Shown piece after piece: positions 2,043 to 64,000 of a stretch of DNA of 64,000 bases. The DNA is from Eledone cirrhosa (lineage: Eukaryota), in NCBI GenBank assembly GCA_964016885.1, contig OZ024748.1, positions 32,674,001-32,738,000 on the forward strand, in the 5' to 3' direction. Within the stretch, counting starts at the first letter, position 1. Each line of letters starts with the position of its first letter. The notes below the pieces were generated by a model. The model saw nothing but the letters and a program-made list of their open reading frames with translations. It did not search any database and was not told the origin of the DNA. A program made the translations under genes and the position numbers.

Positions 2043-2640
2043 ATGAAAGGAATTTGCCCATTATACAGGAGCAAATCATGGAATAGCTTAGATAGGGCTA
2101 GACATAAGATAGGGAAAGCCACCTCATGGTACGACAACCAGAGATACCAGAGTGTCATGTTTGTGGACGCCACCCCTGGAGGGAAATTAGCTAACCAGTG
2201 TAGAAAGGCCCTGAGAAAGACCCACTTAAAAATAAAGGTGGTAGAAAAGCCAGGAACCACCACAAAATCCCTGATCAGCAAAACCTACCCTTTTAAGAAA
2301 ACCCACTGTACCAATAGGAAATGTATCATATGTAAGGTGAACCCCCGGATAAACTGTAAAACTAGAAACGTAGTCTATAGCATAAGATGTACAGAGGGTA
2401 CTTGCAGAAACATGACAACAACATACATAGGTGAGACAGCTCGTAGCATAGGTGAAAGGATAGTGAAAAAACGGGTCAGTACTATACGAACATGCTAGAC
2501 AACAACATGACGGTAACATAGACAACATAGAAATTAGAATAATATCTAAACATAGAAATGACCCAGCAGATAAGCAAATCAGAGAGGCCAGTGAAATAGA
2601 AATTAGAAGACCAAGGCTAAACAGAAAGAATGAATGGAAT
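2043..2640 (+). pseudogene. PLE ORF C-terminal fragment: RT-EN linker, Cys-rich region and GIY-YIG endonuclease
   Basis: FVDATPGGKL...KVVEKPG...CxxxxCxxC...NCKTRNVVYSIRC...YIGETARSIGER. Frameshifted after ~2460 and lacks the RT core. Confidence 0.8.
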
Positions 2641-6730: not shown

Positions 6731-6749
6731 TTGGGGAAGAATGAGGTTC

Positions 6750-9850: not shown

Positions 9851-10179
9851 AATCATTATATTATGTTATAAGTGAATCCCTTATATATAATGCTATTAAT
9901 TTATATATTTAATTATAAATATAATTTATTTTCCTATAATACATTATCTATCCATTATTGAATATAATATTAGTAAGCTATAGTAGTTATATTAAATGGT
10001 GGTAGCTTTATGTTTATTTCTAATAGGAGTTAAGTAGAGGAATGAGCTGATCATAGAGTGTGATGCTGTGGGGGTAATTAGATGCTGATAAAACCTAGAG
10101 GTGAAGTGTTAATGATGGTGAGGAATCCAGATCTGACATTGTTATATACTAGCAGCTAGGTTTAAAGTTATGGAAAGAG

Positions 10180-10540
10180 TGTCGGTGGTGGTGTTGGCAC
10201 ATGGAAAAAATCTCTGATTTTCTATTTAGGAGGTCTAGTTTCGAATAGATTATAGTGTGGGTTTCCAGAAGACAGAGGTTACATAATTAATTCGGTGGCT
10301 TATACGATGCGGCCCTATCTATTACTTCCCATTTAAGTGTATATGGTCTATTCCTAGTTTTTAGAGAGTGTATGTAGTTAGATAAAGAAGTGGGGTTGGC
10401 TAGATTGTGATTTGAAAGAGTGGAGATGCGAGTTATATCTCGTCTTGAAGCAGTTCGAAGTTGAACCGATATATATTTTTGAAGAGTTGTTTGTGTTGAC
10501 CATGCATGAGTAAATGATATCTTTGATTAAGCAATTTTTA
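10180..10540 (-). pseudogene. PLE GIY-YIG fragment (inverted arm)
   Basis: Reverse complement translates to YIGSTSNCFKTRYNSH...CNLCLLET. Confidence 0.8.
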
Positions 10541-10562
10541 CCTAATCGTTTCTTCGGCGTAG

Positions 10563-11830
10563 GTGGTGGGCCTATATATCTTAAATGAAATTCATAAGAA
10601 CCTACCCTACCTCAATGGTGATTTATACCGCGATGATGCATTACTTCTTATTGACTATAACAAATTTAATATAGAAAGAACTAGGAAACAATTACATAAA
10701 ATTTTCAAAAACTTCAACTTAGGTATCACCATAGATAAAAACACTAAAAACGTTAACTTCCTTGATGCTACCCTTTGCCTAGACTCTAAAATATATACAC
10801 CCTTTCATAAACCAAACGAAAAACTACTTTATGTAGATACCAACACTAACCACCCTAAATCCATATTAAACTCAATTACTAAAGGAATATCAAATAGAAT
10901 CTCTAATCTATCATATAACGAAACCCTATTTAACAATAATTCCCAATACTATAATGAGGCCTTAGCTAAATCAGGACATAAAAATGAGATTAAATTTCTA
11001 CCTATAAAATCACCTAGTTACAACATTATTTCTCACAATATGGCCATGAGGAAAAATAATAAAAGTACTAGCCACTCTAACACTAATACAAAGGGTAATA
11101 TCAAACTTAACTCGCACCAGAATAAACACCCCAATAATAATAATAATATAAACAGAAATATAAACAATACCTCAAGTAACATTACAAAAAACAAAAATAG
11201 AAGAACTAATACATTCTTCAATCCCCCTTTCAATCTAAACGTCTCTACCAACTTGTCTAAGGCTTTCTTCTCAATCCTAGAAAAAAACTTCCCAGCCGGC
11301 ACAAATACCATAATCTTATCAATAAAAATACCATTAAAATCTCTTACTCTACCACACCTAACATCGCATACCATATAGCTAGGAGTAATAAAGGGAATAT
11401 TAATAATTATTTCCAACTAATTAAATCACAACAGGGGGTAAACTTACAGAGCAACACAGTACCAGAGAATATTAGTAGCAATAATAATAATGATAATAGC
11501 ACTAATGAAATTAATAACAATAGAACGATAACCATCATTACCCTAATGCCATCCCTAACAGCCAGGCATCTACACAACATAGTAACCGGCAAGCAAACAA
11601 CCGGAATAACTGTAACTGTAGAACAAATAGAACTTACCCCTTAGGTAAAAATTGATTAATCAAAGACATCATTTACTGATGCACGGTCAACACAAACATA
11701 TATCGGTTCAACTTCGAACTGCTTCATGACGAGATATAACTCGCATCTCCACACTTTCAAAATTGCAACCTAGCCAACTCCACTTCTTTATCTAGTTACA
11801 TACAATCTTTGAAAACTAGGAATAAACATA
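10563..11830 (+). pseudogene. 5'-truncated PLE reverse transcriptase (YRDD onward) plus frameshifted GIY-YIG
   Basis: LYRDDALL...VNFLDATL...PFHKPN...YVDTNTNHP...ALAKSG...FFNPPFNLNVSTNL. YIGSTSNCF at ~11700. Confidence 0.88.
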
Positions 11831-13911: not shown

Positions 13912-13977
<66 letters not shown>

Positions 13978-14246
13978 CATACAGGCACACATATATATAT
14001 GTACGTAACAGTTTATCGAACATTATTATAATGTTCGCTTTGTCCGTTTCTTTACAGACGGACAGCCTGATTTACGCCGTACAGTGTTCAGGCAACCACG
14101 TCAGCTTTTTGTTCAACACTGACACAGGAACGATGTACTAGTTTCAAGCTTGTTAGCTTTCGCCAGCACCGTATAGCTTTCTGCCAGATGGTTGAACGTT
14201 CGAAAGTATATACTTTCATTATGAAAATTAACGGCTGAGCAGCCTA

Positions 14247-14254
14247 ATTTGCAT
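14247..14254. promoter_or_regulatory. Octamer motif ATTTGCAT, present in most monomers (representative copy)
   Basis: cctaATTTGCATatc lies ~80 nt upstream of the HHR on the HHR strand. Function untested. Confidence 0.35.
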
Positions 14255-14405
14255 ATCGAGTGAGTTCAGTCGGCCAGGCGCACCAAAAACGATAAAAGGA
14301 ATAGAATGAAACGAAATTTCATTTCTCACTCTTAGTGTGGCACTTACTTAAATGTAAGTATGTATGTATACGTACATACATATATGTATACAGACGTACA
14401 GTAGC

Positions 14406-14448
<43 letters not shown>

Positions 14449-15328
14449 CAGGCACACATATATATATGTACGTAATAGTTTATCGAACATTTATTATAAT
14501 GTTCGCTTTGTTCGTTTGTAAACAAACGGACAGCCTGATTTACGCCGTACAGTGTTCAGGCAACCACGTCACCTTTTTTCCTCAACACTGACACAGGAAC
14601 GATGTACTAGTTTCAAGCTTGTTAGCTATCGCCAGCACCGTATAGCTTTCTGCCAGATGGTTGAACGTTCGAAAGTATATACTTTCATTATGAAAATTAA
14701 CGGCTGAGCAGCCTAATTTGCATATCGAGTAAGTTCAGTCGGCCAGGCGCACCGAAAACAATAAATGGAATAGAATGAAACGAAATTTAATTTCTCACTC
14801 TTAGTACGGCACTTACTTAAATGTAAGTATGTATGTATACGCACATACATATATGTATACAGACGTACAGTAGCATGTATATATATATATATATATATAC
14901 ATACAGGCACACATATATACATGTACGTATCAGTTTACCGAACATTTATTATAATCTTCGCTTTGTTCGTTTGTAAACAAACGGAGTGCCTGATTTACGC
15001 CGTACAGTGTTCAGGCAACCACGTCGCCTTTTTGTTCAACACTGACACAGGTACGATGTACTAGTTTCAAGCTTGTTAACTCTCGTCAGCACCGTATACC
15101 TTTCTGCCAGATGGTTGAACGTTAGAAAGTATATACTTTCCTAATGAAAATTAACGGCTGAACAGCATAATCTGCATATCGAGTTAGTTCAGTCGGCCAG
15201 GCGCACCGAAAACGATAAATGGAATAGAATGAAACGAAATTTCATTTCTCACTCTTAGTACGGCACTTACTTAAATGTAAGTATGTATGTATACGTACAT
15301 ACATATATGTATAGAGACGTACAGTAGC

Positions 15329-15394
<66 letters not shown>

Positions 15395-15842
15395 GCACAC
15401 ATATATATATGTACGTATCAGTTTACCGAACATTTATCATAATGTTCGCTTTGTTCGTTTGTAAACAAACGGACAGCCTGATTTACGGCGTACAGTGTTC
15501 AGGCAACCACGTCACCTTTTTGTTCAACACTGACACAGGAACGATGTACTAGTTTCAAACTTGTTAGCTATCGTCAGCACCGTATACCATTCTGCCAGAT
15601 GGTTAAACGTTCGAAAGTATATACTTTCCTCATGAAAATTAACGGCTGAGCAGCCTAATTTGCATATCGATGAGTTCAGTCGGCCAGGCGCACCGAAAAC
15701 GATAAATGGAATAGAATGAAACGAAATTTCATTTCTCACTCTTAGTACGGCACTTACTTAAATGTAAGTATGTATGTATACGCACATACATATATGTATA
15801 CAGACGTACAGTAGCATGTATATATATATATGTATATATATA

Positions 15843-15898
<56 letters not shown>

Positions 15899-16488
15899 CA
15901 GGCACAGATATATACATGTACGTATCAGTTTATCAAACATTTATTATAATGTTCGCTTTGTTCGTTTGTAAACAAACGGACAGCCTGATTTACGCCGTAC
16001 AGTGTTCAGGCAACCACGTCACCTTTTTGTTCAACACTGACACAGGAACGATGTACTAGTTTCAAACTTGTTAGCTATCGTCAGCACCGTATACCATTCT
16101 GCCAGATGGTTGAACGTTCGAAAGTATATACTTTCCTTATGAAAATTAACGGCTGAGCAGCCTAATTTGCATATCGATGAGTTCAGTCGGCTAGGCGCAC
16201 CGAAAACGATAAAAGGAATAGAATGAAACGAAATTTCATTTCCCTCTCTTAGTACGGCACTTACTTATATGTAAGTATGTATGTATACTTACATACATAT
16301 ATGTATAGAGATATACAGTAGCATGTATATATATATATACAGGCACACATATATATATGTACGTATCAGTTTACCGAACATTTATTATAATGTTTGCTTT
16401 GTTCGTTTGTAAACAAACGGACAGCCTGATTTACGCCGTACAGTGTTCAGGCAACCACGTCACCTTTTTGTTCAACACTGACACAGGA

Positions 16489-16531
16489 ACGATGTACTAG
16501 TTTCAAGCTTGTTAGCTATCGTCAGCACCGT
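16489..16531 (-). ncRNA. Representative minimal type I hammerhead of the array
   Basis: Reverse complement reads acggtg-CTGACGA-tagct-aaca-agctt-GAAA-ctag-TA-catcgt. Helix I has 6 bp with one GU pair. Helix III is the palindrome ACTAGT. Confidence 0.8.
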
Positions 16532-16763
16532 ATACCTTTCTACAAGATGGTTGAACGTTCGAAAGTATATACTTTCCTTATGAAAATTAACGGCTGAGCA
16601 GCCTAATTTGCATATCGATGAGTTCAGTCGGCCAGGCGCACCGAAAACGATAAAAGGAATAGAATGAAACGAAATTTCATTTCTCACTCTTAGTACGGCA
16701 CTTACATATATGTAAGTATGTATGTATACGTACATACATATATGTATAGAGACGTACAGTAGC

Positions 16764-16803
<40 letters not shown>

Positions 16804-16910
16804 TATTTTCCGTTGTGTTGTAATATAAATATTACACACAGTAGATTATCAGCTCACGTAGAGTTTGCTCGACGGTTCCAGTTGTAGTTCCAAAAGTAAT
16901 CCGGAGAAAA

Positions 16911-17651
16911 ATAGAAAGATTTGAATGGATACAGTTTAGTTGAAAGGAATTTATTGACACGTGTTTCTATAACAGTTACATAACCTAAAACAGCTATCTA
17001 CAAACTTTTAGTTATGCAGACATTCAATATTTCAATGTTATTATTTACTGTCATTTCATCAGAATAATATTACTGAGGACCTATTTAGTTTTTATAGAGA
17101 ATATTAGGAGGGAGGGGTGAAGTTGTTAGAAGAATAGTTGAAGGAGTGGTTTTTCGATAGCAGTGAGAATTCTTGGTGGCAGTGAGTAATTAGATTCCCA
17201 TCTGTTGTTTTGACATTTTTTATGGAATATATTATTGGTTATTTTTCTAAATCTATAGAAGGATTAGAGATAGTAAAGATATGCGTGGTTGGTTTTGTGT
17301 TTGCACTTAACATTCAGACTTAAATTTTTCTTTCAAGTGTACGTATTCTTTCACCCACGCATTCACACAAATATATTTGCACACCTCTACAAAATACATA
17401 TACTCACAATTCACATATTCATACTTACATATATATACACATGCATACACATATATATACACACATGTATTCATGTACATACATACGCGCTCATGTGTAT
17501 ACATTTTCATACTCAACTTATCTTTATATATACACACGTATAGACACACACATATATACATACATACTCTAGTCCATGTGTACACACATACGCATACATA
17601 CACATCCACATACACATACATACATACACATATACATATATATATATACAT

Positions 17652-17708
<57 letters not shown>

Positions 17709-18596
17709 CCCACACACACACATATACACATACACACATATATATATATATATATAAGCACTTTAATACATGAATACACTTACATCTAACTATACACATC
17801 AAACATATATATATATTTACTTATTTATATACATTTTCACATATATATACATACTTATGGACGTTTTTAGACACATTCATTATCGCATATTTGTACCTAT
17901 TCTCATCAGCATATCTTTTCATTATTAGTATGGTAATTTAGGTTATTAATATATGTTGAGAAGAGATTGTTTTTATATTTTTCTAACTAGATTAAGGTTT
18001 ATATAGTTGGGGGATGTCCCTCTTTTATGTAATATTCGGCTTGTAGTGGGAAAAAAGGGTTTTAGTTCTGTGACGGCAGAATAATGTTCGTTCAATTCTG
18101 TTATTCAGCAGTTTCTTCTTGTGTGTGATTATGTAATAAATCTCAAGATTACACAATCTTGAGATTTATTACATAATCACACACAAGAAGAAACTGCTGA
18201 ATAACAGAATTGAACGAACATTATTCTGCCGTCACAGAACTAAAACCCTTTTTTCCCACTACAAGCCGAATATTACATAAAAGAGGGACATCCCCCAACT
18301 ATATAAACCTTAATCTAGTTAGAAAAATATAAAAACAATCTCTTCTCAACATATATTAATAACCTAAATTACCATACTAATAATGAAAAGATATGCTGAT
18401 GAGAATAGGTACAAATATGCGATAATGAATGTGTCTAAAAACGTCCATAAGTATGTATATATATGTGAAAATGTATATAAATAAGTAAATATATATATAT
18501 GTTTGATGTGTATAGTTAGATGTAAGTGTATTCATGTATTAAAGTGCTTATATATATATATATATATGTGTGTATGTGTATATGTGTGTGTGTGGG

Positions 18597-18661
<65 letters not shown>

Positions 18662-19396
18662 ATGTATATATATATATATATATGTGTATGTATGTATGTG
18701 TATGTGGATGTGTATGTATGCGTATGTGTGTACACATGGACTAGAGTATGTATGTATATATGTGTGTGTCTATACGTGTGTATATATAAAGATAAGTTGA
18801 GTATGAAAATGTATACACATGAGCGCGTATGTATGTACATGAATACATGTGTGTATATATATGTGTATGCATGTGTATATATATGTAAGTATGAATATGT
18901 GAATTGTGAGTATATGTATTTTGTAGAGGTGTGCAAATATATTTGTGTGAATGCGTGGGTGAAAGAATACGTACACTTGAAAGAAAAATTTAAGTCTGAA
19001 TGTTAAGTGCAAACACAAAACCAACCACGCATATCTTTACTATCTCTAATCCTTCTATAGATTTAGAAAAATAACCAATAATATATTCCATAAAAAATGT
19101 CAAAACAACAGATGGGAATCTAATTACTCACTGCCACCAAGAATTCTCACTGCTATCGAAAAACCACTCCTTCAACTATTCTTCTAACAACTTCACCCCT
19201 CCCTCCTAATATTCTCTATAAAAACTAAATAGGTCCTCAGTAATATTATTCTGATGAAATGACAGTAAATAATAACATTGAAATATTGAATGTCTGCATA
19301 ACTAAAAGTTTGTAGATAGCTGTTTTAGGTTATGTAACTGTTATAGAAACACGTGTCAATAAATTCCTTTCAACTAAACTGTATCCATTCAAATCT

Positions 19397-19402
<6 letters not shown>
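16911..19402. repeat. Near-perfect palindrome (~1.24 kb arms, 4 nt loop ACAC at 18151-18154) inserted in the array
   Basis: The centre reads tctcaagatt-acac-aatcttgaga. The outer ends are atagaaagatttgaatggatac and gtatccattcaaatctttctat. Confidence 0.95.
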
Positions 19403-19444
<42 letters not shown>

Positions 19445-19866
19445 GCACACATATATATATGTACGTATCAGTTTACCGAACATTTATCATAATGTTCGCT
19501 TTGTTGGTTTGTAAACAAACGGACAGCCTGATTTACGCCGTACAGTGTTCAGGCAACCACGTCACCTTTTTGTTCAACACTGACACAGGAACGATGTACT
19601 AGTTTCAAGCTTGTTAGCTATCGTCAGCACCGTATACCTTTGTGCCAGCTGGTTGAACGTTCGAAAGTTTATGCTTTCCTTATGAAAATTAACGGCTGAG
19701 CAGCCTAATTTGCATATCGAGTGAGTTCAGTCGGCCAGGCGCACCGAAAACGATAAGTGGAATAGAATGAAACGAAATTTCATTTCTCACTCTTAGTACG
19801 GCACTTACTTAAATGTAAGTGTGTATGTATACGTACATACATATATGTATAGAGACGTACAGTAGC

Positions 19867-19914
<48 letters not shown>

Positions 19915-20791
19915 GCACACATATATATATGTACGTATCAGTTTACCGAACATTTATTATGATGTTCGCTTTGTTCGTTTGTAGACAAACGGACAGCCTG
20001 ATTTACGCCGTACAGTGTTCAGGCAACCACTTCACCTTTTTGTTCAACACTGACACGGGAACGATGTGCTAGTTTCAAGATTGTTAGCTAACGTCAGCAC
20101 CGTATACCTTTGTGCCAGATGGTTGAACGTTCAAAAGTATATACTTTCCTTATGAAAATTAACGGCTGAGCAGCCTAATTTGCATATCGAGTGAGTTCAG
20201 TCGGCCAGGCGCACCGAAAACGATAAGTGGAATAGAATGAAATGAAATTTCATTTCTCACTCTTAGTACGGCACTTACTTAAATGTAAGTGTGTATGTAT
20301 ACGTACATACATATATGTATACAGACGTACAGTAGCGTGTATATATATATATATATATATATACATGCTGGCACACATATATATATGTACGTATCAGTTT
20401 ACCGAACATTTATTATAATGTTCGCTTTGTTCGTTTGTAAACAAACGGACAGCCTGAATTACGCCGTACAGTGTTCAGGCCACCGCGTCACCTTTTTGTA
20501 CAACACTGACACAGGAACGATGTACTAGTTTCAAGCTTGTTAGCTATCGTCAGCAACGTATACCTTTCTGCAAGATGGTTGAACGTTCGAAAGTATATAC
20601 TTTCCTTATGAAAATTAACGGCTGAACAGCCTAATTTGCATATCGATGAGTTCAGTCGGCCAGGCGCACCGAAAACGATAAAAGGAATAGAATGAAACGA
20701 AATTTCATTTCTCTCTCTCAGTACGGCACTTACATATATGTAAGTATGTATGTATACGTACATACATATATGTATAGAGACGTACAGTAGC

Positions 20792-20877
<86 letters not shown>

Positions 20878-21299
20878 GCACACATATATATATGTACGTA
20901 TCAGTTTACCGAACATTTATCATAATGTTCGCTTTGTTGGTTTGTAAACAAACGGACAGCCTGATTTACGCCGTACAGTGTTCAGGCAACCACGTCACCT
21001 TTTTGTTCAACACTGACACAGGAACGATGTACTAGTTTCAAGCTTGTTAGCTATCGTCAGCACCGTATACCTTTGTGCCAGCTGGTTGAACGTTCGAAAG
21101 TTTATGCTTTCCTTATGAAAATTAACGGCTGAGCAGCCTAATTTGCATATCGAGTGAGTTCAGTCGGCCAGGCGCACCGAAAACGATAAGTGGAATAGAA
21201 TGAAACGAAATTTCATTTCTCACTCTTAGTACGGCACTTACTTAAATGTAAGTGTGTATGTATACGTACATACATATATGTATACAGACGTACAGTAGC

Positions 21300-21334
<35 letters not shown>

Positions 21335-21758
21335 CTGGCACACATATATATATGTACGTATCAGTTTACCGAACATTTATTATAATGTTCGCTTTGTTCG
21401 TTTGTAAACAAACGGACAGCCTGAATTACGCCGTACAGTGTTCAGGCAACCAGGTCACCTTTTTGTTCAACATTGACATAGGAACGATGTACTAGTTTCA
21501 AGCTTGTTAGCTATCGTCAGCACCGTATACCTTTCTACAAGATGGTTGAACGTTCGAAAGTATATACTTTCCTTATGAAAATTAACGGCTGAGCAGCCTA
21601 ATTTGCATATCGATGAGTTCAGTCGGCCAGGCGCACCGAAAACGATAAATGGAATAGAATGAAACGAAATTTCATTTCTCTCTCTTATTACGGCACTTAC
21701 TTATATGTAAGTATGTACGTATACGTACATACATATATGTATACAGACGTACAGTAGC

Positions 21759-21816
<58 letters not shown>

Positions 21817-22690
21817 GCACACATATATATATGTACGTATCAGTTTACCGAACATTTATTATGATGTTCGCTTTGTTCGTTTGTAGACAAACGGACAGCC
21901 TGATTTACGCCGTACAGTGTTCAGGCAACCACTTCACCTTTTTGTTCAACACTGACACGGGAACGATGTGCTAGTTTCAAGATTGTTAGCTAACGTCAGC
22001 ACCGTATACCTTTGTGCCAGATGGTTGAACGTTCAAAAGTATATACTTTCCTTATGAAAATTAACGGCTGAGCAGCCTAATTTGCATATCGAGTGACTTC
22101 AGTCGGCCAGGCGCACCGAAAACGATAAGTGGAATAGAATGAAACGAAATTTCATTTCTCACTCTTAGTACGGCACTTACTTAAATGTAAGTGTGTATGT
22201 ATACGTACATACATATATGTATACAGACGTACAGTAGCGTGTATATATATATATATATATACATGCTGGCACACATATATATATGTACGTATCAGTTTAC
22301 CGAACATTTATTATAATGTTCGCTTTGTTCGTTTGTAAACAAACGGACAGCCTGAATTACGCCGTACAGTGTTCAGGCCACCACGTCACCTTTTTGTACA
22401 ACACTGACACAGGAACGATGTACTAGTTTCAAGCTTGTTAGCTATCGTCAGCAACGTATACCTTTCTGCAAGATGGTTGAACGTTCGAAAGTATATACTT
22501 TCCTTATGAAAATTAACGGCTGAACAGCCTAATTTGCATATCGAGTTAGTTCAGTCGGCCAGGCGCACCGAAAACGATAAATGGAATAGGGTGAAACGAA
22601 ATTTCATTTCTCACTCTTAGTACGGCACTTACTTAAATGTAAGTATGTATGTATACGTACATACATATATGTATACAGAGGTACAGTAGC

Positions 22691-22824
<134 letters not shown>

Positions 22825-22826
22825 CA

Positions 22827-22857
<31 letters not shown>

Positions 22858-22918
22858 AATATATACATATATATATATATATATATAAATATATACATAT
22901 ATATATATATATATATAA

Positions 22919-22995
<77 letters not shown>

Positions 22996-23191
22996 CAGGC
23001 ACACATATATGAAAATTAACGGCTGAACAGCCTAATTTGCATATCGAGTTAGTTCAGTCGGCCAGGCGCACCGAAAACGATGTATGGAATAGAATGAAAC
23101 GAAATTTCATTTCTCACTCTTAGTACGGCACTTACTTAAATGTAAGTATGTATGTATACGTACATACATATATGTATAGAGACGTACAGTA

Positions 23192-23250
<59 letters not shown>

Positions 23251-23676
23251 CAGGCACACATATATATATATGTACGTATCAGTTTACCGAACATTTATTA
23301 TAATGTTCGCTTTGTTCGTTTGTAAACAAACGGACAGACTCATTTACGCCGTACAGTGTTCAGGCAACCACGTCACCTTTTTGTTTAACACTGACACTGG
23401 AACGATGTACTAGTTTCAAACTTGTTAGCTATCGTCAGCACCGTATACCATTCTGCCGGATGGTTGAACGTTCGAAAGTATATACTTTCCTTATGAAAAT
23501 TGACGGCTGAGCAGCCTAATTTGCATATCGATGAGTTCAGTCGGCCAGGCGCACCGAAAACTATAAAAGGAATAGAATGAAACGAAATTTAATTTCTCTC
23601 TCTTAGTACGGCACTTACTTATATGTAAGTATGTATGTATACGTACATACATATATGTATAGAGACGTACAGTAGC

Positions 23677-23741
<65 letters not shown>

Positions 23742-24166
23742 CAGGCACAGATATATACATGTACGTATCAGTTTACCGAACATTTATTATAATGTTCGCT
23801 TTGTTCGTTTGTAAACAAACGGACAGCCTGATTTACGCCGTACAGTGTTCAGGAAACCACGTCACCTTTTTGTTCAACACTGACACAGGAACGATATACT
23901 AGTTTCAAGCTTGTTAGCTATCGTCAGCACCGTATACCTTTCTGTCAGATGGTTGAACGTTCGAAAGTATATACTTTCCTTATGAAAATTAACGGCTGAG
24001 CAGCCTAATTTGCACATCGAGTTAGTTCAGTCGGCCAGGCGCACCGAAAACGATGTATGGAATAGAATGAAACGAAATTTCATTTCTCACTCTTAGTACG
24101 GCACTTACTTAAATGAAAGTATGTATGTATACGTACATACATATATGTATAGAGACGTACAGTAGC

Positions 24167-24233
<67 letters not shown>

Positions 24234-24668
24234 TATACATACAGGCACACATATATATATATGTACGTATCAGTTTTTCCGAACATTTATTATAATGTTC
24301 GCTTTGTTCGTTTGTAAACAAACGGACAGACTCATTTACGCCGTACAGTGTTCAGGCAACCACGTCACCTTTTTGTTCACCACTGACACTGGAACGATGT
24401 ACTAGTTTCAAACTTGTTAGCTATTGTCAGCACCGTATACCATTCTGCCGGATGGTTGAACGTTCGAAAGTATATACTTTCCTTATGAAAATTAACGGCT
24501 GAGAAGCCTAATTTGCATATCGATGAGTTCAGTCGGCCAGGCGCACCGAAAACGATAAATGGAATAGAATGAAACGAAATTTAATCTCTCTCTGTTATAA
24601 CGGCACTTACTTATATGTAAGTATGTACGTATACGTACATACATATATGTATAGAGACGTACAGTAGC

Positions 24669-24716
<48 letters not shown>

Positions 24717-25607
24717 GCACACATATATATATGTACGTATCAGTTTACCGAACATTTATTATGATGTTCGCTTTGTTCGTTTGTAGACAAACGGACAGCC
24801 TGATTTACGCCGTACAGTGTTCAGGCAACCACTACACCTTTTTGTTCAACACTGACACGGGAACGATGTACTAGTTTCAAGCTTGTTAGCTAACGTCTGC
24901 ACCGTATACCTTTGTGCCAGATGATTGAACGTTCAAAAGTATATACTTTCCTTATGAAAATTAACGGCTGAGCAGCCTAATTTGCATATCGAGTGAGTTC
25001 AGTCGGCCAGGCGCACCGAAAACGATAAGTGGAATAGAATGAAACGAAATTTCATTTCTCACTCTTAGTACGGCACTTACTTAAATGTAAGTGCGTATGT
25101 ATACGTACATACATATATGTATACAGACGTACAGTAGCATGTATATATATATATACATACTGGCACACATATATATATGTACGTATCAGTTTACCGAACA
25201 TTTATTATAATGTTCGCTTTGTTCGTTTGTAAACAAACGGACAGCCTGAATTACGCCGTACAGTGTTCAGGTAACCACGTCACCTTTTTGTTCAACACTG
25301 ACACAGGAACGATGTACTAGTTTCAAGCTTGTTAGGTATCGTCAGCACCGTATACCTTTCTGCAAGATGGTTGAACGTTCGAAAGTATATACTTTCCTTA
25401 TGAAAATTAACGGCTGAACAGCCTAATTTGCATATCGAGTTAGTTCAGTCGGCCAGGCGCACCGAAAACGATAAATGGAATAGCGTGAAACGAAATTTCA
25501 TTTCTCACTCTAAGTACGGCACTTACTTAAATGTAAGTATGTATGTATACGTACATACATATATGTATACAGAGGTATAGTAGCATGTATATATATATAT
25601 ATATATA

Positions 25608-25655
<48 letters not shown>

Positions 25656-25668
25656 TATATATATATAA

Positions 25669-25701
<33 letters not shown>

Positions 25702-25718
25702 AATATATATATATATAA

Positions 25719-25805
<87 letters not shown>

Positions 25806-26248
25806 AATATATATATATACATACAGGCACACATATATATATGTACGTATCAGTTTAACCAAACATTTATTATAATGTTCGCTTTGTTCGTTTGTAAACA
25901 AACGGACAGCCTGATTTCCGCCGTACAGTGTTCAGGCAACCACGTCACCTTTTTGTTCAACACTGACACAGGAACGATGTACTAGTTTCAAGCTTGTTCG
26001 GTATCGTCAGCACCGTATACCTTCCTGAAAGATGGTTGAACGTTCGAAAGTATATACTTTCCTTATGAAAATTAACGGCTGAGCAGCCTAATTTGCATAT
26101 CGAAGAGTTCAGTCGGCCAGGCGCACCGAAAACGATAAATGGAATGGAATGAAACGAAATTTCATTTCTCTCTCTTAGTGCGGCACTTACTTAAATGTAA
26201 GTATGTATGTATACGTACATACATATATGTATACAGACGTACAGTACC

Positions 26249-26303
<55 letters not shown>

Positions 26304-26311
26304 CATACAGG

Positions 26312-26342
<31 letters not shown>

Positions 26343-27220
26343 ACAGGCACACATATATACATGTACGTTTACCGAACATTTATTATAATGTTCGCTTTGT
26401 TCGTTTGTAAACAAACGGACAGCCTGATTTACGCCGTACAGTGTTCAGGCAACCACGTCACCTTTTTGTTCAACACTGACACAGGAATGATGTACTAGTT
26501 TCAAGCTTGTTAGCTATCGTCAGCACCGTATACCTTTCTGCCAGATGGTTGAACGTTCGAAAGTATATACTTTCCTTATGATAATTGACGGCTGAGCAGC
26601 CTAATTTGCATATCGAGTTAGTTCAGTCGGCCAGGCGCACCGAAAACGATAAATGGAATAGAATGAAACGAAATTTCATTTCTCACTCTTAGTACGGCAC
26701 TTACTTAAATGTAAGTGTGTATGTATACGTACATACATATATGTATACAGACGTACAGTAGCATGTATATATATATATATATATATATATACATACAGGC
26801 ACACATATATATATGTACGTATCAGTTTACCGTACATTTATAATAATGTTCGCTTTGTTCGTTTGTAAACAAACGGACAGCCTGATTTACGCCGTACAGT
26901 GTTCAGGAAACCACGTCACCTTTTTGTTCAACACTGACACAGGAACGATGTACTAGTTTCAAGCTTGTTAGCTATCGTCAGCACCGTATACCTTTCTGTC
27001 AGATGGTTGAACGTTCGAAAGTATATACTTTCCTTATGAAAATTAACGGCTGAGCAGCCTAATTTGCACATCGTGTTAGTTCAGTCGGCCAGGCGCACCG
27101 AAAACGATATATGGAATAGAATGAAACGAAATTTCATTTCTCACTCTTAGTACGGCACTTACTTAAATGTAAGTATGTATGTATACGTACATACATATAT
27201 GTATACAGACGTACTGTAGC

Positions 27221-27292
<72 letters not shown>

Positions 27293-28345
27293 GCACATAT
27301 ATATATATGTACGTATTAGTTTACCAAACATTTATTATAATGTTCGCTTTGTTCGTTTGTAAACAAACGGACATCCGGATTTACGCCGTACAGTGTTCAG
27401 CCAACCACGTCACCTTTTTGTTCAACACTGACACATGAACGATGTACTAGTTTCAAGCTTGTCAGCTATCGTCAGCACCGTATACCTTTCTGCCAGATGG
27501 TTGAACGTTTGAACGTGGTTGCCTGAACACTGTACGGCGTAAATCAGGCTGGTCGTTTGTTTACAAACGAACAAAGCGAACATTATAATAAATGTTCGGT
27601 AAACTGATACGTACATATATATATGTGTGCCTGTATGTATGTATATATATATATATACATGCTACTGTACGTCTGTATACATATATGTATGTACGTATAC
27701 ATACATACTTACGTTTAAGTGCCGTAATACGAGTGAGAAATGAAATTTCGTTTCATTCTATTCCATTTATCATTTTCGGTGCGCCTGGCCGACTGAATTC
27801 ACTCGATATGTAAATGAGGGTTCTTAGCCGTTAATTTTCATAAAGAAAGTATATACTTTCGAACGTTCAACCATCTGGTAGAAAGGTATACGGTGCTGAC
27901 GATAGCTAAGAAGCTTGAAACTAGTACATCTTTCCTGTGTCAGTGTTGAACAAAAAGGTGACGTGGTTGCCTGAACACTGTACGGCGTAAATCAGGCTGT
28001 CCGTTTGTTTACAAACGAACAAAGCGAACATTATAATAAATGTTCGGTAAACTGATACGTACATATATATATGTGTGCCTGTATGTATATATATATATAT
28101 ATATATATACATGCTACTGTACGTCTGTATACATATATGTATGTACGTATACATACATACTTACATTTAAGTAAGTGCCGTACTAAGAGTGAGAAATGAA
28201 ATTTTGTTTCATTCTATTCTATTTATCGTTTTCGGTGCGCCTGGCCGACTGAACTCACTCGATATGCAAATTAGGCTTCTCAGCCGTTAATTTTCATAAG
28301 GAAAGTATATACTTTCGAACGTTCAACCATCTGGCAGAAAAGTAT

Positions 28346-28388
28346 ACGGTGCTGACGATAGCTAAGAAGCTTGAAACTAGTACATCGT
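28346..28388 (+). ncRNA. Array hammerhead in an inverted monomer
   Basis: acggtg-CTGACGA-tagct-aaga-agctt-GAAA-ctag-TA-catcgt read directly on the plus strand. Another copy lies at 27890-27930. Confidence 0.8.
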
Positions 28389-28537
28389 TCCTGTGTCAAT
28401 GTTGAACAAAAAGGTGACGTGGTTGCCTGAACACTGTACGACGTAAATGAGGCTGTCCGTTTGTTTACAAACGAACAAAGCGAACATTATAATAAATGTT
28501 CGGTAAACTGATACGTACATATATATATGTGTGCCTG

Positions 28538-28612
<75 letters not shown>

Positions 28613-32289: not shown

Positions 32290-32705
32290 CTGACTTTTTG
32301 CGAGGCTTGGAATGTAGACAAAGCTTTATGAAGGCAGTTTGAGAATAATTCACTTTTTTTGTTAATTAAGTTTTCATAATTATTAATTATTAATAGGGTC
32401 TCCATAGTACAGAGGTTGCAGTTAGGTGATATTGACGAATTCGAGTACATTCTACTATTACATAGCTTCGTCCAAAAAATCGAGTATTTTAAATTTTTGT
32501 CTTTTAATGACCATATAAGTTGTGATAAAGAAGTCTAAGACTTCCTATTAGGATTCGAAAAAGAGCATTTGTGATTCCCAAATCTCGATTTAAATGTCGA
32601 AGAAGTTGCCCCTATGTAATTGTATGTGATGTTATTTGTTTTAACGGTGCATACACCAAATTTCTATCTAGACAATTATTTTGCAGAGGGCAATTTGGTT
32701 TATTT
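32290..32705 (-). pseudogene. PLE GIY-YIG endonuclease fragment
   Basis: Reverse complement translates to PNCPLQNNCLDRNLVY / NYIGATSSTFKSRFGNHKCSF / CNLCTMET, with frameshifts. Confidence 0.8.
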
Positions 32706-34689: not shown

Positions 34690-35650
34690 CTGCAGCATCT
34701 CGCATAGTGGAGATGCAGAAAATGTCTCTTCGCCTCGTCTGCCCAGCCACGGCTGTCTAGCACATCATCAGATGAGACAGCAACCTTGCCTGATGCCCAA
34801 GCGTCGCTGGTCATCATTGCTCGGCTCAGGCGGTGCCGGAAGATCCGACTCAGGATCCCGAGAGCAGTCCGGGTGCCTATAGCCACTTTCCGTGCTTCCT
34901 CGATTGGGAGTGCCCTGGACTCCAATCAAGCCAGCGACTGGGACTGACTCTTCTAATTCGCCCCACTTGCCCTGGGCCTCCGCATCTCTTGCCTTGTCCG
35001 AGGCGGCCGGTTGACAGCAGCCTTTGTCAAGGCCATTCCAAGCGTCCCTAAGGGCACCACACAACCTGCTCTCGGGTGCCCCTATTCCTCCAACCCTGAG
35101 GCCAGCACCAAGCGTTTGCGTGACCGTGTAAACGCCAAATTAATCAAGGGTGATGTCTCGGCTGCAGTCAGAGTGGTTGCCTCAGAGGAGATCCTGGCTG
35201 CCTTGCAAATCAAGCACCCTGAACCACTCGCTGATCTCAGACCCATAGCTCCACCCGATCCCCACTTGCTCCGTGTGGCTTCCAATTCAGACATCATGTC
35301 CGCTATCAAGTCCTTCCCAGCTAGTAGCAGCGGAGATGCTGATGGTATCCGGCCTGGCCACCTCAAGGACTTGCTATCTCCCCTCTCCACTGAGGCCGGG
35401 CGCTGCCTTTTGAGTGCAATTCTGGCACTCACCAATAAACTAATCCATGGAGCCCTGGACCCTCACGACCAAGGCCTCTTTTTCAGCTAGCCTGACCGCT
35501 CTCAGGAAGAAAGAGGGTGGCATACGCCCCATCTCTGTGGGCAATGTCTTCCAGGGGCTGGTTGCCAAGCTGGTCTGCAGGTCCATAACACCTGAACTGG
35601 GTGAGGAGTTCAGTCCCGTGCAACTGGGTGTCTGCGTGTGAGGGGGGCAG
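34690..35650 (+). pseudogene. CRE-clade non-LTR retrotransposon RT N-terminal fragment
   Basis: VNAKLIKGDVSAAVR...LQIKHP...AIKSFPASSSGDADGIRPGHLKDL / SLTALRKKEGGIRPISVGNVF...PVQLGV. Frameshifted. Confidence 0.75.
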
Positions 35651-35990
35651 CACATGCAACCAGGCAGTTCTTCAACAGCTGCCCACCGGAACTGGCATCC
35701 AGGCACTCCCGGCACCTCATTGTCAATGTGATTGGCATTAGGAAGGGCATCCAGCCATAGAAAACCAGCCAGAAACACTCCTATATGAGGTGTCACGGTC
35801 ACCTGACACAACTTGCCTTAAAATAGGACCTGTGTAACCCATGGAAGATAGATGTTAATCGATGATGGTGATGATGATATATATGTAGTGTACACATAGT
35901 ATGTATAGTGCATATATATATATATGATAAATGCTGGTGCCAAGCCGTTTCAGCCATTCCTCTGGACATTATATATAGTGTATGTATATA

Positions 35991-36080
<90 letters not shown>

Positions 36081-36117
36081 TATATACATACACTATATAT
36101 AATGTCCATATATATAA

Positions 36118-36168
<51 letters not shown>

Positions 36169-36898
36169 AGAGGTATAGAGATTGTTTTAGCGAGAAGCTA
36201 ACAGCATTTTATAACATATATGCGACTATAACGTCAAGATGGGAAAAGTAGTTAACGTAAGATTTAGGAAAAATAATTCAAACTCATCTCAAAAGAGAAT
36301 CAGGATACAAATTCATCCACAGAATTTAGTGCAATCCAGGGAAAAATCAATAGACCTTTAACTCATGATAAAATAAAGTTTAAAACACTTATCCTTCAAT
36401 TTGGAATAACATCAAATGCTCTGTATAGTCTTAAAAGACTATTTCATGAAAACTTTCAGTGGAGATGGTCACGGTTGGATTTCATTCATCAGCAGAGCTC
36501 AACAGAAAACTAGGGCTCTCACAGTATTATAATCCGAAAAAGGGAATTCTAAAACTGGCTAGTTCGCCATCATGTGTAGTTATGAAAAAGCACATGGGGA
36601 AAAACGGGGCTAGTGACGTCAGGATGTAAGTGAATGTTTATTTACAAGAAATAGCAGTCAAATACATTCTGAAAAAAACTCTACAAAAGGAGTTCAGCAA
36701 AAATAGCAATAATTATCACAGTTTTTATGAAAAAAACCGGGATTAGTCACAGATAGTTTAAGCACTCTAGGAAAAGAATCCGAGTATAAATATAAATGAG
36801 AGGTATAGAGATTGTTTTAGCGAGAAGCTACCAGCATTCTATAACATATATGCGACTATAACGTTAAGATGGGAAAAGTAGTTAACGTAAGATTTAGG

Positions 36899-36902
<4 letters not shown>
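36169..36902 (-). mobile_element. 630 bp-period, terminally redundant non-coding element carrying a hammerhead (retrozyme-like)
   Basis: A ~104 bp direct repeat (agaggtatagag...gatttaggaaaa) lies at 36169-36272 and 36799-36902. The element sits in (TA)n and is absent from the paralogous cassettes. Confidence 0.8.
36418..36498 (-). ncRNA. Canonical type I hammerhead ribozyme
   Basis: gctctg-CTGATGA-atgaaa...tttcat-GAAA-tagtctt-tt-aagacta-TA-cagagc. All three helices pair. Confidence 0.9.
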
Positions 36903-36957
<55 letters not shown>

Positions 36958-37007
36958 TACATACATACACTATATCTTTCATTTATATATATATATATAT
37001 ACCTTTC

Positions 37008-37057
<50 letters not shown>

Positions 37058-39266: not shown

Positions 39267-40043
<777 letters not shown>

Positions 40044-45809: not shown

Positions 45810-46812
45810 ACACCTACAGCAACTCGCATATTGGAGATGCAGCAACTGTCTCTCTGCCTCGTCTGCCCAGCCACGGCCGTCTAGCACATCATCAGATGAG
45901 ACAGCAACCTTGCCTGATGCTCAAGCGTCGCTGGTCATCATCGCTCGGCTCAGGCGGTGCCAATAGATCCCACTCAGGATCCCGAGAGCAGCCCGGGTGC
46001 CGGTAGCCGATGCCCTTGTTTCCTCAATTGGGAGTGCCCTGGACTCCAATTGAACCAGCGTCTGGGTGCATCTCTTCTAATTCGCCCCACTTGCCCTTGG
46101 CCTCTCCATCTCAGGCACTGTCCAAGGCAGCCGGTCGACAGCAGCCTTTGTCAAGGCCAATGTTTCATCCTTTGGGCAAGTGCCCATTCCAAGCATGCCT
46201 AAGGACACCACACACCCCGCTCTCGGGTGCCCCCAATCCTCCACCCCTGAGGCCAGCACCAAGCGTTTGCATGACCGTGTAAACGCCAAATTAATCAAGG
46301 GTGATGTCTCGGCTGCAGTCAGAGTGGTTGCCTCAGAAATCACTGTCCTACAAACCACCGAGGAGATCCTGGCTGCCTTGCGAATCAAGCACCCTGAACC
46401 ACTCGCTGATCTCAGACCCATAGCCCCACCCGATCCCCACTTGCTCCGTGTGGCTTCCAATGCAGACATCATGTCCGCTATCAAGTCCTTCCCAGCTAAT
46501 AGTAGCGGAGATGCTGATGGTATCCGAACTGCTCACCTCAAGGAGTTTCTATCCCCCCTCTACGCTGAGGCCGAGTGCTGCCTTCTGAGTGCAATTGTGA
46601 CACTCACCAATAGGCTAATCTATGGCGCCTTGGACCCTCACCCCCAAAGCCTCTTTTTTGGCCTGCCTGACGGCTCTCAGGAATAAAGAGGGTGGCATAT
46701 GCCCCATCTCTGTGGGCAAGGTGCTCCAGGAGCTGGTCTGCAGGTCCATAACACTTGAACTGGGTGAGGAATTCAGTCTGGTGCAACTGAGTGTCAGCAT
46801 GTGAGAGGGGCC
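45810..46812 (+). pseudogene. CRE-clade RT fragment (duplicated copy)
   Basis: Paralog of 34690-35650; ORF 46180..46686. Confidence 0.75.
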
Positions 46813-48716: not shown

Positions 48717-49891
<1,175 letters not shown>

Positions 49892-51930: not shown

Positions 51931-52378
<448 letters not shown>

Positions 52379-55977: not shown

Positions 55978-56770
<793 letters not shown>

Positions 56771-56800
56771 TGAAATCCTTCTCTTATACATCTCAACATA

Positions 56801-56834
<34 letters not shown>

Positions 56835-58084
56835 CCTCACTCAAGCGGATGAAATATACTCCCATATATCGATATCACAATTGGACATTGCTACTGAGGG
56901 TAGGATGACCTGATGAGCTGGCTCCTGTGGTGGATACCTAAACATAGTAAGACCCTAGTGGGATGACCGAGATTGCCCTAACAGATGTCTCTGGATGTCC
57001 AGCTGGAGATTAATGATCTCAGCAATGCCATGGAAGATCATGACATCTAAAAAAGAGTAGAATTGTTCTGGCCAATCCACTGATTTAATAAATGATAATG
57101 ATAATAATATATATTAATGAACATTTATTATGGTGAAATATGTTGGAAATCATTCTCAGAGGTTTTGTATTGTAATCCACAAATACACTCTGGAGGAAGC
57201 TCCACTTCATATTATTTGTCATTAAGGTTTCTTATATAGATACATTCTCATTTCATTGTTGAGGGTAGTGGATTTGCAGAATCAGTAGAGAGTCAGACAA
57301 AATACTTTGTGTCATATAGTTACATCCCTTTACATTCTGTATTAAAATCTTGCTGAGGTTAGCTTTACTTTTCTTCCTCAGAGGTTCAGTAAAATAAAGT
57401 ACCAGTAATCCACTGGAGTTGATTTAATCAACTTTCTCCTTCCCTTCCAATTGCTGGCCTTGAGTTAAAAGTAGAAACATTTATTTAAAGTCTATAAAAC
57501 AATAGATAGAATGCTTTCTGCCATATTTGCTCTGGTTCTCTGCTCTCTGAGTTTAAATCCTACTGAGGTCAACTTTGCCTTTCATCCATTCAAGGTTTAT
57601 AAGGAAAAAGTAGCTGTCTACCACAGGGTCTGTTCTTCCTCTCTCTCATTCTCTTCTTTGGAAGTAATCAACTGTTCAAACCTGGTGAGTGAAGGGCTCC
57701 ACCAATGACTCCATCGTTTGAACAAAAAACAAAGCAAAAGATCAACTGGTTTATATTCAAAAGATCAACTGGTTTATATTCATATTTGTGACAAAATATC
57801 TACATTTATGTTTAAATAAAAACAATTTTATAACTTCAGTATTTGTTGGATGGTATGGTCATGACAGTTCAAATTAGGACTTTTAAAAAAAATTAACATT
57901 TGAAAATACTTTACAACTTTCTCCTCTTTATCTTTACCCATTCCTGAGAGGGTTGTAAGGGGTAGAGTCCTCACACACCCCTTCTATGTCCTATGTGTGT
58001 AAAATTTCCTCTATACACTACACACTACATCACTCTGCACACACACACACCACATTACTACACCACAATACACACCCCATGGGA

Positions 58085-59324: not shown

Positions 59325-60913
59325 GTTACATATTCTGGTTATATATTACACACATATAATACTATACTTCTAAGTTGGTTATATACTACATGCTGCTAAA
59401 AGTAATACTATACTTCTAAACTGGTTATATATTGCACACTGTTAAAAGAAATACTATACTTCTAAATTAGTTATATATTACACATTGCTAAAAGTAATAC
59501 TATACTTCTAAACTGGTTATATATTACACACTGCTAAAAGTAATACTATACCTCTAAACTGGTTATATATTACACACTGCTAAAATTAATACTATACCTC
59601 TAAACTAGTTATATATTACACACTGCTAAAAGTAATACTATACTTCTAAAATAGTTATATTACACACTGCTAAAAGTAATACTATACTTCTAAACTGGTT
59701 ATATATTACGCACTGCTAAAAGTAATACTATACTTCTAAACTAGTTATATATTACACACTGTTAAAAGTAATACTATACTTCTAAGCTGGTTATATACTA
59801 CATGCTGCTAAAAGTAATACTATACTTCTAAACTAGTTATATATTACACACTGCTAAAAATAATACTATACTTCTAAACTGGTTATATACTACATGGTGT
59901 TAAAAGTAATACTATACTTCTAAACTGGTTATATATTACATGTTGCTAAAAGTAATACTATACTTCTAAACTGGTTATATACTACATGGTGTTAAAAGTA
60001 ATACTATACTTCTAAACTGGTTATATATTACACACTGCTAAAAGTAATACTATACTTCTAAACTAGTTATATATTACACACTGCTAAAAGCAATATTATA
60101 ATTCTAAACTGGTTATATATTACACACTGCTAAAAGTAATACTATACTTCTAAACTGGTTATATATTACATGCTGCTAAAAGTAATACTATACTTCTAAG
60201 CTGGTTATATATTACATGCTGCTAAAAGTAATACTATACTTCTAAACTGGTTATATACTACATGGTGTTAAAAGTAATACTATACTTCTAAACTGGTTAT
60301 ATATTACACACTGCTAAAAGTAATACTATACTTCTAAACTAGTTATATATTACACACTGCTAAAAGTAATATTATAATTCTAAACTGGTTATATATTACA
60401 CACTGCTAAAAGTAATACTATACTTCTAAACTGGTTATATATTACATGCTGCTAAAAGTAATACTATACTTCTAAGCTGGTTATATATTACATGCTGCTA
60501 AAAGTAATACTATACTTCTAAACTGGTTATATATTACATGCTGCTAACAGTAATACTATACTTCTAAACTGGTTATATATTACACACTACTAAAAGTAAT
60601 ACTATACTTCTAAACTGGTTATATATTACATGCTGCTAAAAGTAATACTATACTTCTAAGCTGGTTATATATTACACACTGCTAAAAGTAATACTATACT
60701 TCTAAACTGGTTATATATTACATGCTGCTAACAGTAATACTATACCTCTAAACTAGTTATATATTACACACTACTAAAAGTAATACTATACTTCTAAACT
60801 GGTTATATATTACATGCTGCTAACAGTAATACTATACCTCTAAACTAGTTATATATTACACACTACTAAAAGTAATACTATACTTCTAAACTGGTTATAT
60901 ATTACATGCTGCT
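59325..60913. repeat. 46 bp minisatellite, ~34 copies
   Basis: Unit ctgctaaaagtaatactatacttctaaactggttatatattacaca, e.g. at 59531 and 59577. Confidence 0.97.
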
Positions 60914-61356
60914 ATACTGATAACATAATGCATCATCATCTTATGTTATAAACTGCTTCACTGGTGACTTCTATTGATACACAATACACAAATACAAATA
61001 TAACTTTGCCTTTCATCCTTACAGGGCCGATAAAATAAAGTATCACTGGGATAATTGATGGCCTTGTGCCAAAAGTAGAAATAATTATTATTCTCAAACA
61101 TATCTTATCAAATACTATCTTCCCAGTAACTGTCCCAAACTCCCGCATAGTGGGACAACCCAGCTCCCAAATTATGGTTCCAATGTGTGCAGGATAGGGT
61201 GCAGCCCACTGACCAGAACCTCCTAATAAAGGTGTCACCCAGGGCTCTATTATAAACAAGGCTTGGTATGACCAACTGGCCAGAACCTCCTCATAAAGGT
61301 GTCACCCAGGGCTCCACTATGAACAAGGCTTGGTGCATTAAGCGATTTAGCTATCT

Positions 61357-62959: not shown

Positions 62960-64000
<1,041 letters not shown>

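What the first reader, a model, noticed from the sequence alone, without database searches (positions are those of the whole stretch)
36169..36902. Single retrozyme-like 1.16-mer with a perfect hammerhead
Seen: a 630 bp unit plus ~104 bp terminal redundancy, no ORF, inserted in (TA)n in only one cassette copy. The HHR has fully paired helices I (6 bp), II (6 bp) and III (7 bp plus the core pair). Inference: greater-than-unit length is what reverse transcription of a circular or multimeric RNA would leave. It is unrelated in sequence to the large array, so it would be a second family.
Basis: partly seen in the sequence, partly recalled or inferred. Interest (0 to 1): 0.7.

Follow-up and report, generated by a model that had tools for sequence, protein, structure and literature searches.

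The report
Hammerhead retrozyme inserted into TA repeats
This is one copy of a 630-base non-coding jumping repeat, present thousands of times in this animal genome, that carries a hammerhead motif predicted to cut its own RNA; its copies start at one fixed point beside TA repeats and run on past their own start, likely because a Penelope-type enzyme copies a circular RNA.

Summary
There is a 630-bp unit plus ~105–115 bp of redundancy, no ORF, and a type I hammerhead on the minus strand, in the TA run of 1 of 3 cassette copies. It is not single. The genome has 2,143 exact matches to a 20-mer across the cut site and 824 exact copies of one end. An older 622-bp subfamily shows three compensatory changes in helices I and II. 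Ends are not circularly permuted: 167 of 177 segments start at one fixed site beside (TA)n, and the other end is randomly truncated, as in target-primed reverse transcription. Copies of 0.05–7.4 units cross the start site and the ribozyme cut site seamlessly, with no pile-up at the cut. That fits a circular or an uncut multimeric RNA template. No coding Penelope body was attached to any sampled copy, and the partner enzyme was not identified. The window copy has only one hammerhead, so it could not release a circle itself. Cleavage, expression and circles are untested. Verdict: new member of the animal non-LTR retrozymes. The scan noted other such families in this genome, and none matched this sequence.

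The parts
36161..36903 (-). Whole inserted copy, about 1.18 units of the 630-bp family (subfamily A); hammerhead-sense RNA is the minus strand
36161..36175 (-). Fixed end of the family (3' end in hammerhead sense; inferred priming site), abutting (TA)n; slightly altered in this copy
   Evidence: 167 of 177 segments start here; 824 exact genome matches
36169..36798 (-).
   Evidence: tandem period 628–630 in multi-unit copies
36799..36903 (-). Terminal redundancy (start of a second unit), ending at the randomly truncated end
   Evidence: 3 mismatches in 104 nt; same haplotype variants as the first unit
36418..36498 (-). Type I hammerhead: helix I 36498–36493/36423–36418, core CUGAUGA 36492–36486, helix II 36485–36480/36451–36446, GAAA 36445–36442, helix III 36441–36426; predicted cut between 36424 and 36423
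36899..36926 (+). A28 run: expansion of the unit's internal A5 at the truncated end, not a poly(A) tail
   Evidence: (L042 alike)
35963..36165 (.). Left junction: expanded TA runs and a 28–32-bp fold-back (inverted) copy of the left target flank at ~36081–36108
36927..37052 (.). Right junction: TA runs, an inverted ~21-bp copy of left-flank target sequence, and two inverted 8–9-nt starts of the family's fixed end (subfamily C-type letters)

Best explanation
It is one truncated insertion of a high-copy, non-coding 630-base repeat family with a conserved type I hammerhead, likely pasted into TA microsatellites by a Penelope-type reverse transcriptase that primes at one internal site of a probably circular RNA. 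Shown: thousands of dispersed copies in several subfamilies; one fixed end beside (TA)n; a randomly truncated other end; seamless read-through of both the start site and the ribozyme cut site; no ORF; compensatory changes in the hammerhead helices. Inferred steps: (1) Copies holding two hammerheads (8 of 72 sampled) are transcribed on the hammerhead strand. (2) They self-cleave to a 630-nt monomer that is ligated to a circle. (3) An autonomous element's endonuclease nicks (TA)n, and the DNA 3' end pairs with the UAUA stretch inside the RNA. (4) The enzyme copies onward at a roughly constant stop rate, sometimes round more than once. (5) Repair at the TA break joins the far end and leaves fold-back copies of the target. 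The window copy is likely a dead end because it has a single hammerhead.
For: Fixed end: 167 of 177 segments, and 88 of 92 greater-than-unit ones; 824 exact ends genome-wide; the same end in subfamilies B, C and D. TA target: 153 of 158 fixed ends have ≥3 TA units and 140 of 177 variable ends have a TA run within 25 nt. Read-through: uniform junctions (273 exact); 2,143 intact cut-site 20-mers against 17 ending there into TA; 6 of 219 passes stop within 10 nt of the cut versus 2.9–4.4% in neighbouring windows, and the stop rate has no step at 630 nt. One template per insertion: 1.0% divergence within versus 2.9% between insertions; 19 private variants present in every covering unit. Selection on the ribozyme: 3 pairs with double-sided changes between subfamilies A and B, 96.8% of cells paired. 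A predicted circle folds at −125.8 kcal/mol versus −106.0±5.3 for 40 shuffles, with the hammerhead formed. L299 looks like twin priming: one arm ends at unit position 328 and the inverted arm starts at 329. The genome holds many Penelope-like elements (10,597 GIY-YIG candidates). A Penelope RT initiates internally and cuts AT-rich DNA in vitro (PMC11167929), and Hydra and Naiad clades insert in (TA)n (PMC8557442).
Against: No RNA evidence for cleavage, expression or circles. No autonomous partner was found: no related hammerhead beside 50 GIY-YIG loci, no homology beyond family copies, and the published Hydra-1_Obim hammerhead looks unlike this one by eye. The two-start 'tail' signature of Penelope elements is missing: 0 matches for a second start at unit position ~57. 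The PAc enzyme primes without homology and uses unprocessed RNA as its dominant substrate (PMC11167929). RNA-editing marks repeated in every unit are at best weak (5 of 19 vs 13 of 136, p=0.049; no overall strand bias). Several long arrays show block patterns among units (L027, L217, L216) that suggest growth by DNA recombination after insertion. The three covarying pairs are three inherited events, not 50.
Confidence: 0.6

Rival explanations
1. Same element and same priming, but the template is the uncut linear multimeric transcript of a tandem copy, not a circle. The hammerhead acts at another step or only trims transcripts.
For: It predicts the same seamless read-through and no pile-up at the cut. 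In vitro the Penelope PAc inserts from unprocessed RNA and hammerhead mutants insert normally (PMC11167929). The editing test for repeated copying of one molecule was weak.
Against: It does not explain why the helices stayed paired through compensatory change in a propagating lineage. Insertions of 7.4 units (L211, L216) need equally long source arrays or later expansion. Private variants shared by all units would each need a rare source array.
Confidence: 0.25
2. It is mobilised by a TA-targeting LINE (for example Dong/R4) rather than a Penelope-like element.
For: Dong-R4 is among the most recently active LINE groups in Octopus vulgaris (PMC13282606, table passage). A fixed 3' end with 5' truncation and occasional inversions (L033, L299, L338) is also the LINE footprint (established knowledge).
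Against: The priming site is internal to a continuous unit, with uniform junctions, which is reported for Penelope RT (PMC11167929). Head-to-tail partial tandems and hammerheads are Penelope traits (PMC8557442, PMC4209133). I did not compare the family with Dong/R4 3' ends.
Confidence: 0.1
3. These are simply truncated 3' ends (pLTRs) of a coding Penelope-like element.
For: The fixed end, TA target, partial tandems and hammerhead are all pLTR traits. Frog retrozymes are homologous to pLTRs (bioRxiv 10.64898/2026.07.22.740005), so descent from one is plausible.
Against: All 92 greater-than-unit segments run back into their own start, not into an ORF. Among 177 flanks, the only pairs sharing sequence right after the variable end are the element's own inverted arms. 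The 12 flanks with Penelope-protein hits belong to different clades and start ≥178 nt away.
Confidence: 0.04
4. It is a DNA-level repeat (satellite or DNA rolling-circle element) with an incidental hammerhead-like motif.
For: Some arrays show DNA-level block duplication. No RNA was observed.
Against: One fixed and one random end whose polarity matches the hammerhead strand, dispersal over many chromosomes, a motif absent from 2,000 shuffles and covariation.
Confidence: 0.01

Closest known systems
Metazoan non-LTR retrozymes (Cervera & de la Peña 2020, PMC7229834; Li, Clavereau & Pollet 2026, bioRxiv 10.64898/2026.07.22.740005)
   Same: Non-coding, low-GC (~33%) unit with a type I hammerhead; monomers, partial and full tandems; thousands of copies; coexists with Penelope-like elements; predicted circle leaves the hammerhead free to fold.
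   Different: The 630-bp unit is longer than the 150–450 bp of the 2020 paper, though within the preprint's 51–972 bp. Helix III is long (6–7 bp, near-palindromic) and loop II is 28 nt. Strict (TA)n targeting and a fixed-end/truncated-end polarity are mapped here, and I did not see them described in the parts read. Expression and circles are not shown here.
Penelope-like elements with C-terminal endonuclease (Poseidon PAc, PMC11167929; Hydra, Neptune, PMC8557442)
   Same: Internal start of reverse transcription, AT/TA-rich targets, 5' truncation, partial head-to-tail tandems, occasional inverted arm, hammerhead on the sense strand.
   Different: No RT or GIY-YIG ORF; one start site rather than two (no 30–40-bp tail); the start site matches the TA target; a canonical rather than minimal hammerhead; no sequence link to any coding element found.
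Non-autonomous Chlamys elements such as MRC1 (PMC8557442, passage)
   Same: Non-coding Penelope-dependent elements with pLTR-like redundancy and multicopy head-to-tail insertions.
   Different: Those share 3' ends with known autonomous families, and most Chlamys lack canonical hammerheads. Here no partner was found and the hammerhead is canonical.

Membership tests
Non-LTR retrozyme | Type I hammerhead with canonical core in the unit | tested here: met
   (sequence and structure only)
Non-LTR retrozyme | Non-coding, low-GC unit in tandem, multi-copy | tested here: met
   no ORF; ~33% GC; arrays up to 7.4 units; 2,143 cut-site matches
Non-LTR retrozyme | [quoted passage not shown] | tested here: met
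   met by the family (L211–L219; 8 of 72 sampled copies); not met by the window copy, which has one hammerhead
Non-LTR retrozyme | No LTR-type fixed ends on both sides | tested here: met
   one fixed, one random end; PBS/PPT not searched separately
Non-LTR retrozyme | Self-cleavage and accumulation as linear and circular RNA | not testable with these tools
   no RNA holder listed
Non-LTR retrozyme | Target-site duplication | tested here: inconclusive
   hidden by (TA)n on both sides; the window junction shows inverted target copies instead
Autonomous Penelope-like element / its pLTR | RT plus GIY-YIG ORF attached to the repeat | tested here: not met
Autonomous Penelope-like element / its pLTR | Two RT start sites giving an optional 30–40-bp tail | tested here: not met
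   0 matches for a start at unit position ~57 (one candidate site, exact pattern); 167 of 177 segments share one start
Plant-type LTR retrozyme | Type III hammerhead in two LTRs, both ends fixed | tested here: not met
   type I, single, internal; variable end
tRNA-derived SINE | tRNA head and 3' A/simple-repeat tail, unit length or less | tested here: not met
   ARAGORN 0 genes; the A run is at the RNA 5' side; copies exceed one unit

The most novel reading that the evidence does not exclude
The family records a telomerase-like way of writing an RNA circle into DNA. A nicked (TA)n end pairs with a short internal UAUA-flanked template, can realign and add the first 9–15 bases repeatedly (about ten repeats at L374; also L363, L366 and the right junction of the window copy), and then rolls round the circle. 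Such elements would lengthen the TA microsatellites they target and give a direct assay for how animal retrozyme circles are retrotransposed.
Probability: 0.2. Interest if true: 0.72.

Novelty: new member of a known kind. Interest (0 to 1): 0.42.

Why it matters
The 2020 retrozyme paper leaves open whether animal retrozyme circles are primed by target DNA or by a small RNA, and which enzyme copies them. The 2026 preprint says the mechanism remains to be worked out. This family's ends point to target priming at one internal site with read-through of the ribozyme cut, and its young copies (median 0.8% from the majority) give a defined substrate for cleavage, circularisation and Penelope-RT assays. 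It also shows a hammerhead kept paired across subfamilies ~26% apart. The class is known, and the scan has noted several other such families in this genome, so the gain is a clean new example rather than a new kind.

Tried and rejected
Sequencing runs: no RNA holder listed. Contigs of four runs of unknown kind, one study, cover the unit but cannot show ends or expression. Rfam gave nothing relevant. A metagenome scan for the hammerhead pattern gave 0 matches. Partner search: 30 top GIY-YIG loci and 20 long-frame loci out of 10,597 candidates were compared by BLAST and covariance model. The only hits were short family copies, which led to subfamilies C and D. Hydra-type 3' UTRs in held loci showed no resemblance. 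This search was far from exhaustive, and LINE 3' ends were not compared. Rejected: circular permutation of ends; pile-up at the cut site (four long arrays ending 11–23 nt short of it first looked suggestive but the larger sample is flat); a second fixed start; a poly(A) tail; relation to the 469-bp array; a dimeric-circle reading of alternating variants in L027 (the pattern does not fit cleanly); strong A-to-I editing marks. In one search one row (L189) was given on the wrong strand and was ignored. Literature searches for a cephalopod hammerhead or retrozyme listed no paper describing this family. Subscription journals, Repbase and Dfam were not searchable, and the supplements of the 2026 preprint and the O. 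vulgaris repeat library were not seen, so it may already be catalogued as an unnamed repeat.

Full report
Observation. The sequence at 36169–36902 is as described. The first 104 bases recur 630 bases later with 3 mismatches, and no frame is open for more than 78 codons. A type I hammerhead lies on the minus strand at 36498–36418, with helices I and II of 6 bp, an intact core, and helix III of 6 bp plus the core pair. The predicted cut is between 36424 and 36423. A looser descriptor matched 0 of 2,000 shuffles of the unit. Rfam has no match. The other two cassette copies have only (TA)6 and (TA)10 at this site, and the element is unrelated to the 469-bp array. The host looks like an octopus, judged from recall of its zinc-finger arrays and the 3.0-Gb genome; no call names it.

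Family. The own-genome search gave 2,843 first-look candidates, of which 40 were scored at 95–100% identity. Exact counts are lower bounds: 2,143 matches to a 20-mer across the cut site, 824 to the fixed end of the window's subfamily A and 273 to its internal unit junction. An older 622-bp subfamily B is about 74% identical, and C and D are intermediate. Across 37 distinct hammerheads of A and B, 96.8% of cells pair. Two pairs of helix I and one of helix II change on both sides between the subfamilies. These are three inherited events, but they show the fold was kept in the lineage that propagated.

Ends. I mapped 177 segments (≥88% identity, far end inside the locus, duplicates removed) from loci L001–L060 and L201–L360. 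Of these, 167 start at one site next to (TA)n, which is the 3' end in hammerhead sense. Part of that sample was selected by this end, but 88 of the 92 greater-than-unit segments also start there, and these were mostly found by the whole unit or the internal junction. The other end is spread over the unit. In a sample of 72 taken along contig C1 by their fixed end, the median is 295 nt, 15 exceed one unit and 8 hold two full hammerheads; the stop rate stays at 0.1–0.4 per 100 nt with no step at 630. The window's A28 run extends an internal A5 at the truncated end, as in L042.

Template. Unit junctions are uniform, with no added bases, so the start site is internal to a continuous template. Copies also pass the ribozyme cut without stopping. 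Only 17 end there into TA against 2,143 intact, and 6 of 219 passes stop within 10 nt of it, three of them fetched for that reason, against 2.9–4.4% in neighbouring windows. Cut linear monomers are therefore not the template. Units within an insertion differ by 1.0% and insertions by 2.9% (59 arrays); 19 private variants occur in every covering unit (162 insertions, 85 multi-unit). This fits one circle copied repeatedly, or an uncut multimer from a homogeneous array. Editing marks do not decide it (5 of 19 vs 13 of 136, p=0.049, no overall strand bias). Some long arrays show block patterns that suggest later DNA-level growth. Three insertions have an inverted second arm (L033, L299, L338), and in L299 it starts one base after the first arm ends. 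The predicted circle is more stable than 40 shuffles (z −3.7) and keeps the hammerhead folded.

Partner. No coding body follows the variable end. Among 177 flanks only the element's own inverted arms are shared, and 12 flanks have unrelated, non-adjacent Penelope remnants. The genome is rich in Penelope-like elements, but 50 GIY-YIG loci showed no related end or hammerhead, and Hydra-type ends did not resemble it. A second start site was not found. Assigning a Penelope enzyme therefore rests on the footprint and on literature, and a TA-targeting LINE is not excluded.

Junction of this copy. The left side has a 28–32-bp fold-back copy of the target flank. The right side has an inverted copy of left-flank sequence and two inverted 8–9-nt starts of the family end, all among expanded TA runs. 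Among 18 genome matches (12 places read) for a start that stops after 9 bases, three places show reiterated starts, about ten at L374. This could be telomerase-like realignment or DNA slippage and end-joining; two neighbouring repeats at L374 share a substitution, which favours some DNA-level copying.

Literature seen. PMC7229834: parts 2–3 of 6, passages and the Discussion. bioRxiv 10.64898/2026.07.22.740005: parts 1–3 of 5. PMC8557442: passages, the Hydra section and supplement rows. PMC11167929: parts 1–2 of 4. PMC4209133: part 1 of 4. PMC13282606: passages. The 2020 paper proposes that circles are primed by target DNA or a small RNA and names Penelope elements as strong candidates. Searches listed no description of this family.

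Verdict. It works like, and meets the sequence-testable criteria of, an animal non-LTR retrozyme; cleavage and circles are untested. It is not a coding Penelope end, an LTR retrozyme or a tRNA SINE. Earlier scan notes describe other such families in this genome, and none matched by sequence. Novelty: new member of a known kind; interest 0.42.

Noticed in passing
window 13942–28600: The 469-bp array carries its own, unrelated hammerhead-like motif on the minus strand (for example core at 15089); dispersed copies occur in many other loci.
   Followed up: partly
L374 (G000:C15:36290343–36290549), L363, L366: About ten reiterated 9-nt starts of this family separated by TA runs, followed by an inverted short copy and a 98-nt copy; telomerase-like addition or DNA slippage.
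   Followed up: partly
L299, L033, L338: Two-armed inverted insertions; in L299 the second arm starts one base after the first ends, as in twin priming.
   Followed up: partly
L091–L120, L141–L200: Older subfamilies B (622 bp), C and D share the fixed end and TA target. Many C/D copies stop after ~57 nt at an internal TA-like stretch, partly because of the query used.
   Followed up: yes
window 34957–35700 and 46081–46683: Broken reverse-transcriptase-like frames in the repeated cassette, resembling CRE/R2-group non-LTR elements (recalled, not tested).
   Followed up: no
window 1962–2495, 6647–7510, 10164–11375, 32328–32618: Penelope-like coding remnants of several clades (Naiad-like, Hydra-like and another; labels from motif recall).
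   Followed up: partly
window 39267–40040, 48801–49828, 52002–52304, 56192–56849, 63139–64000: C2H2 zinc-finger arrays in a cassette repeated about every 10–11 kb, several with frame breaks.
   Followed up: no
window 59357–60914: 46-bp tandem array of 34 copies, 91% matches.
   Followed up: no
window ~36611–36622 and ~36735–36750: A CRE-like palindrome and a block near the unit end are conserved across subfamilies and are candidate promoter elements.
   Followed up: no
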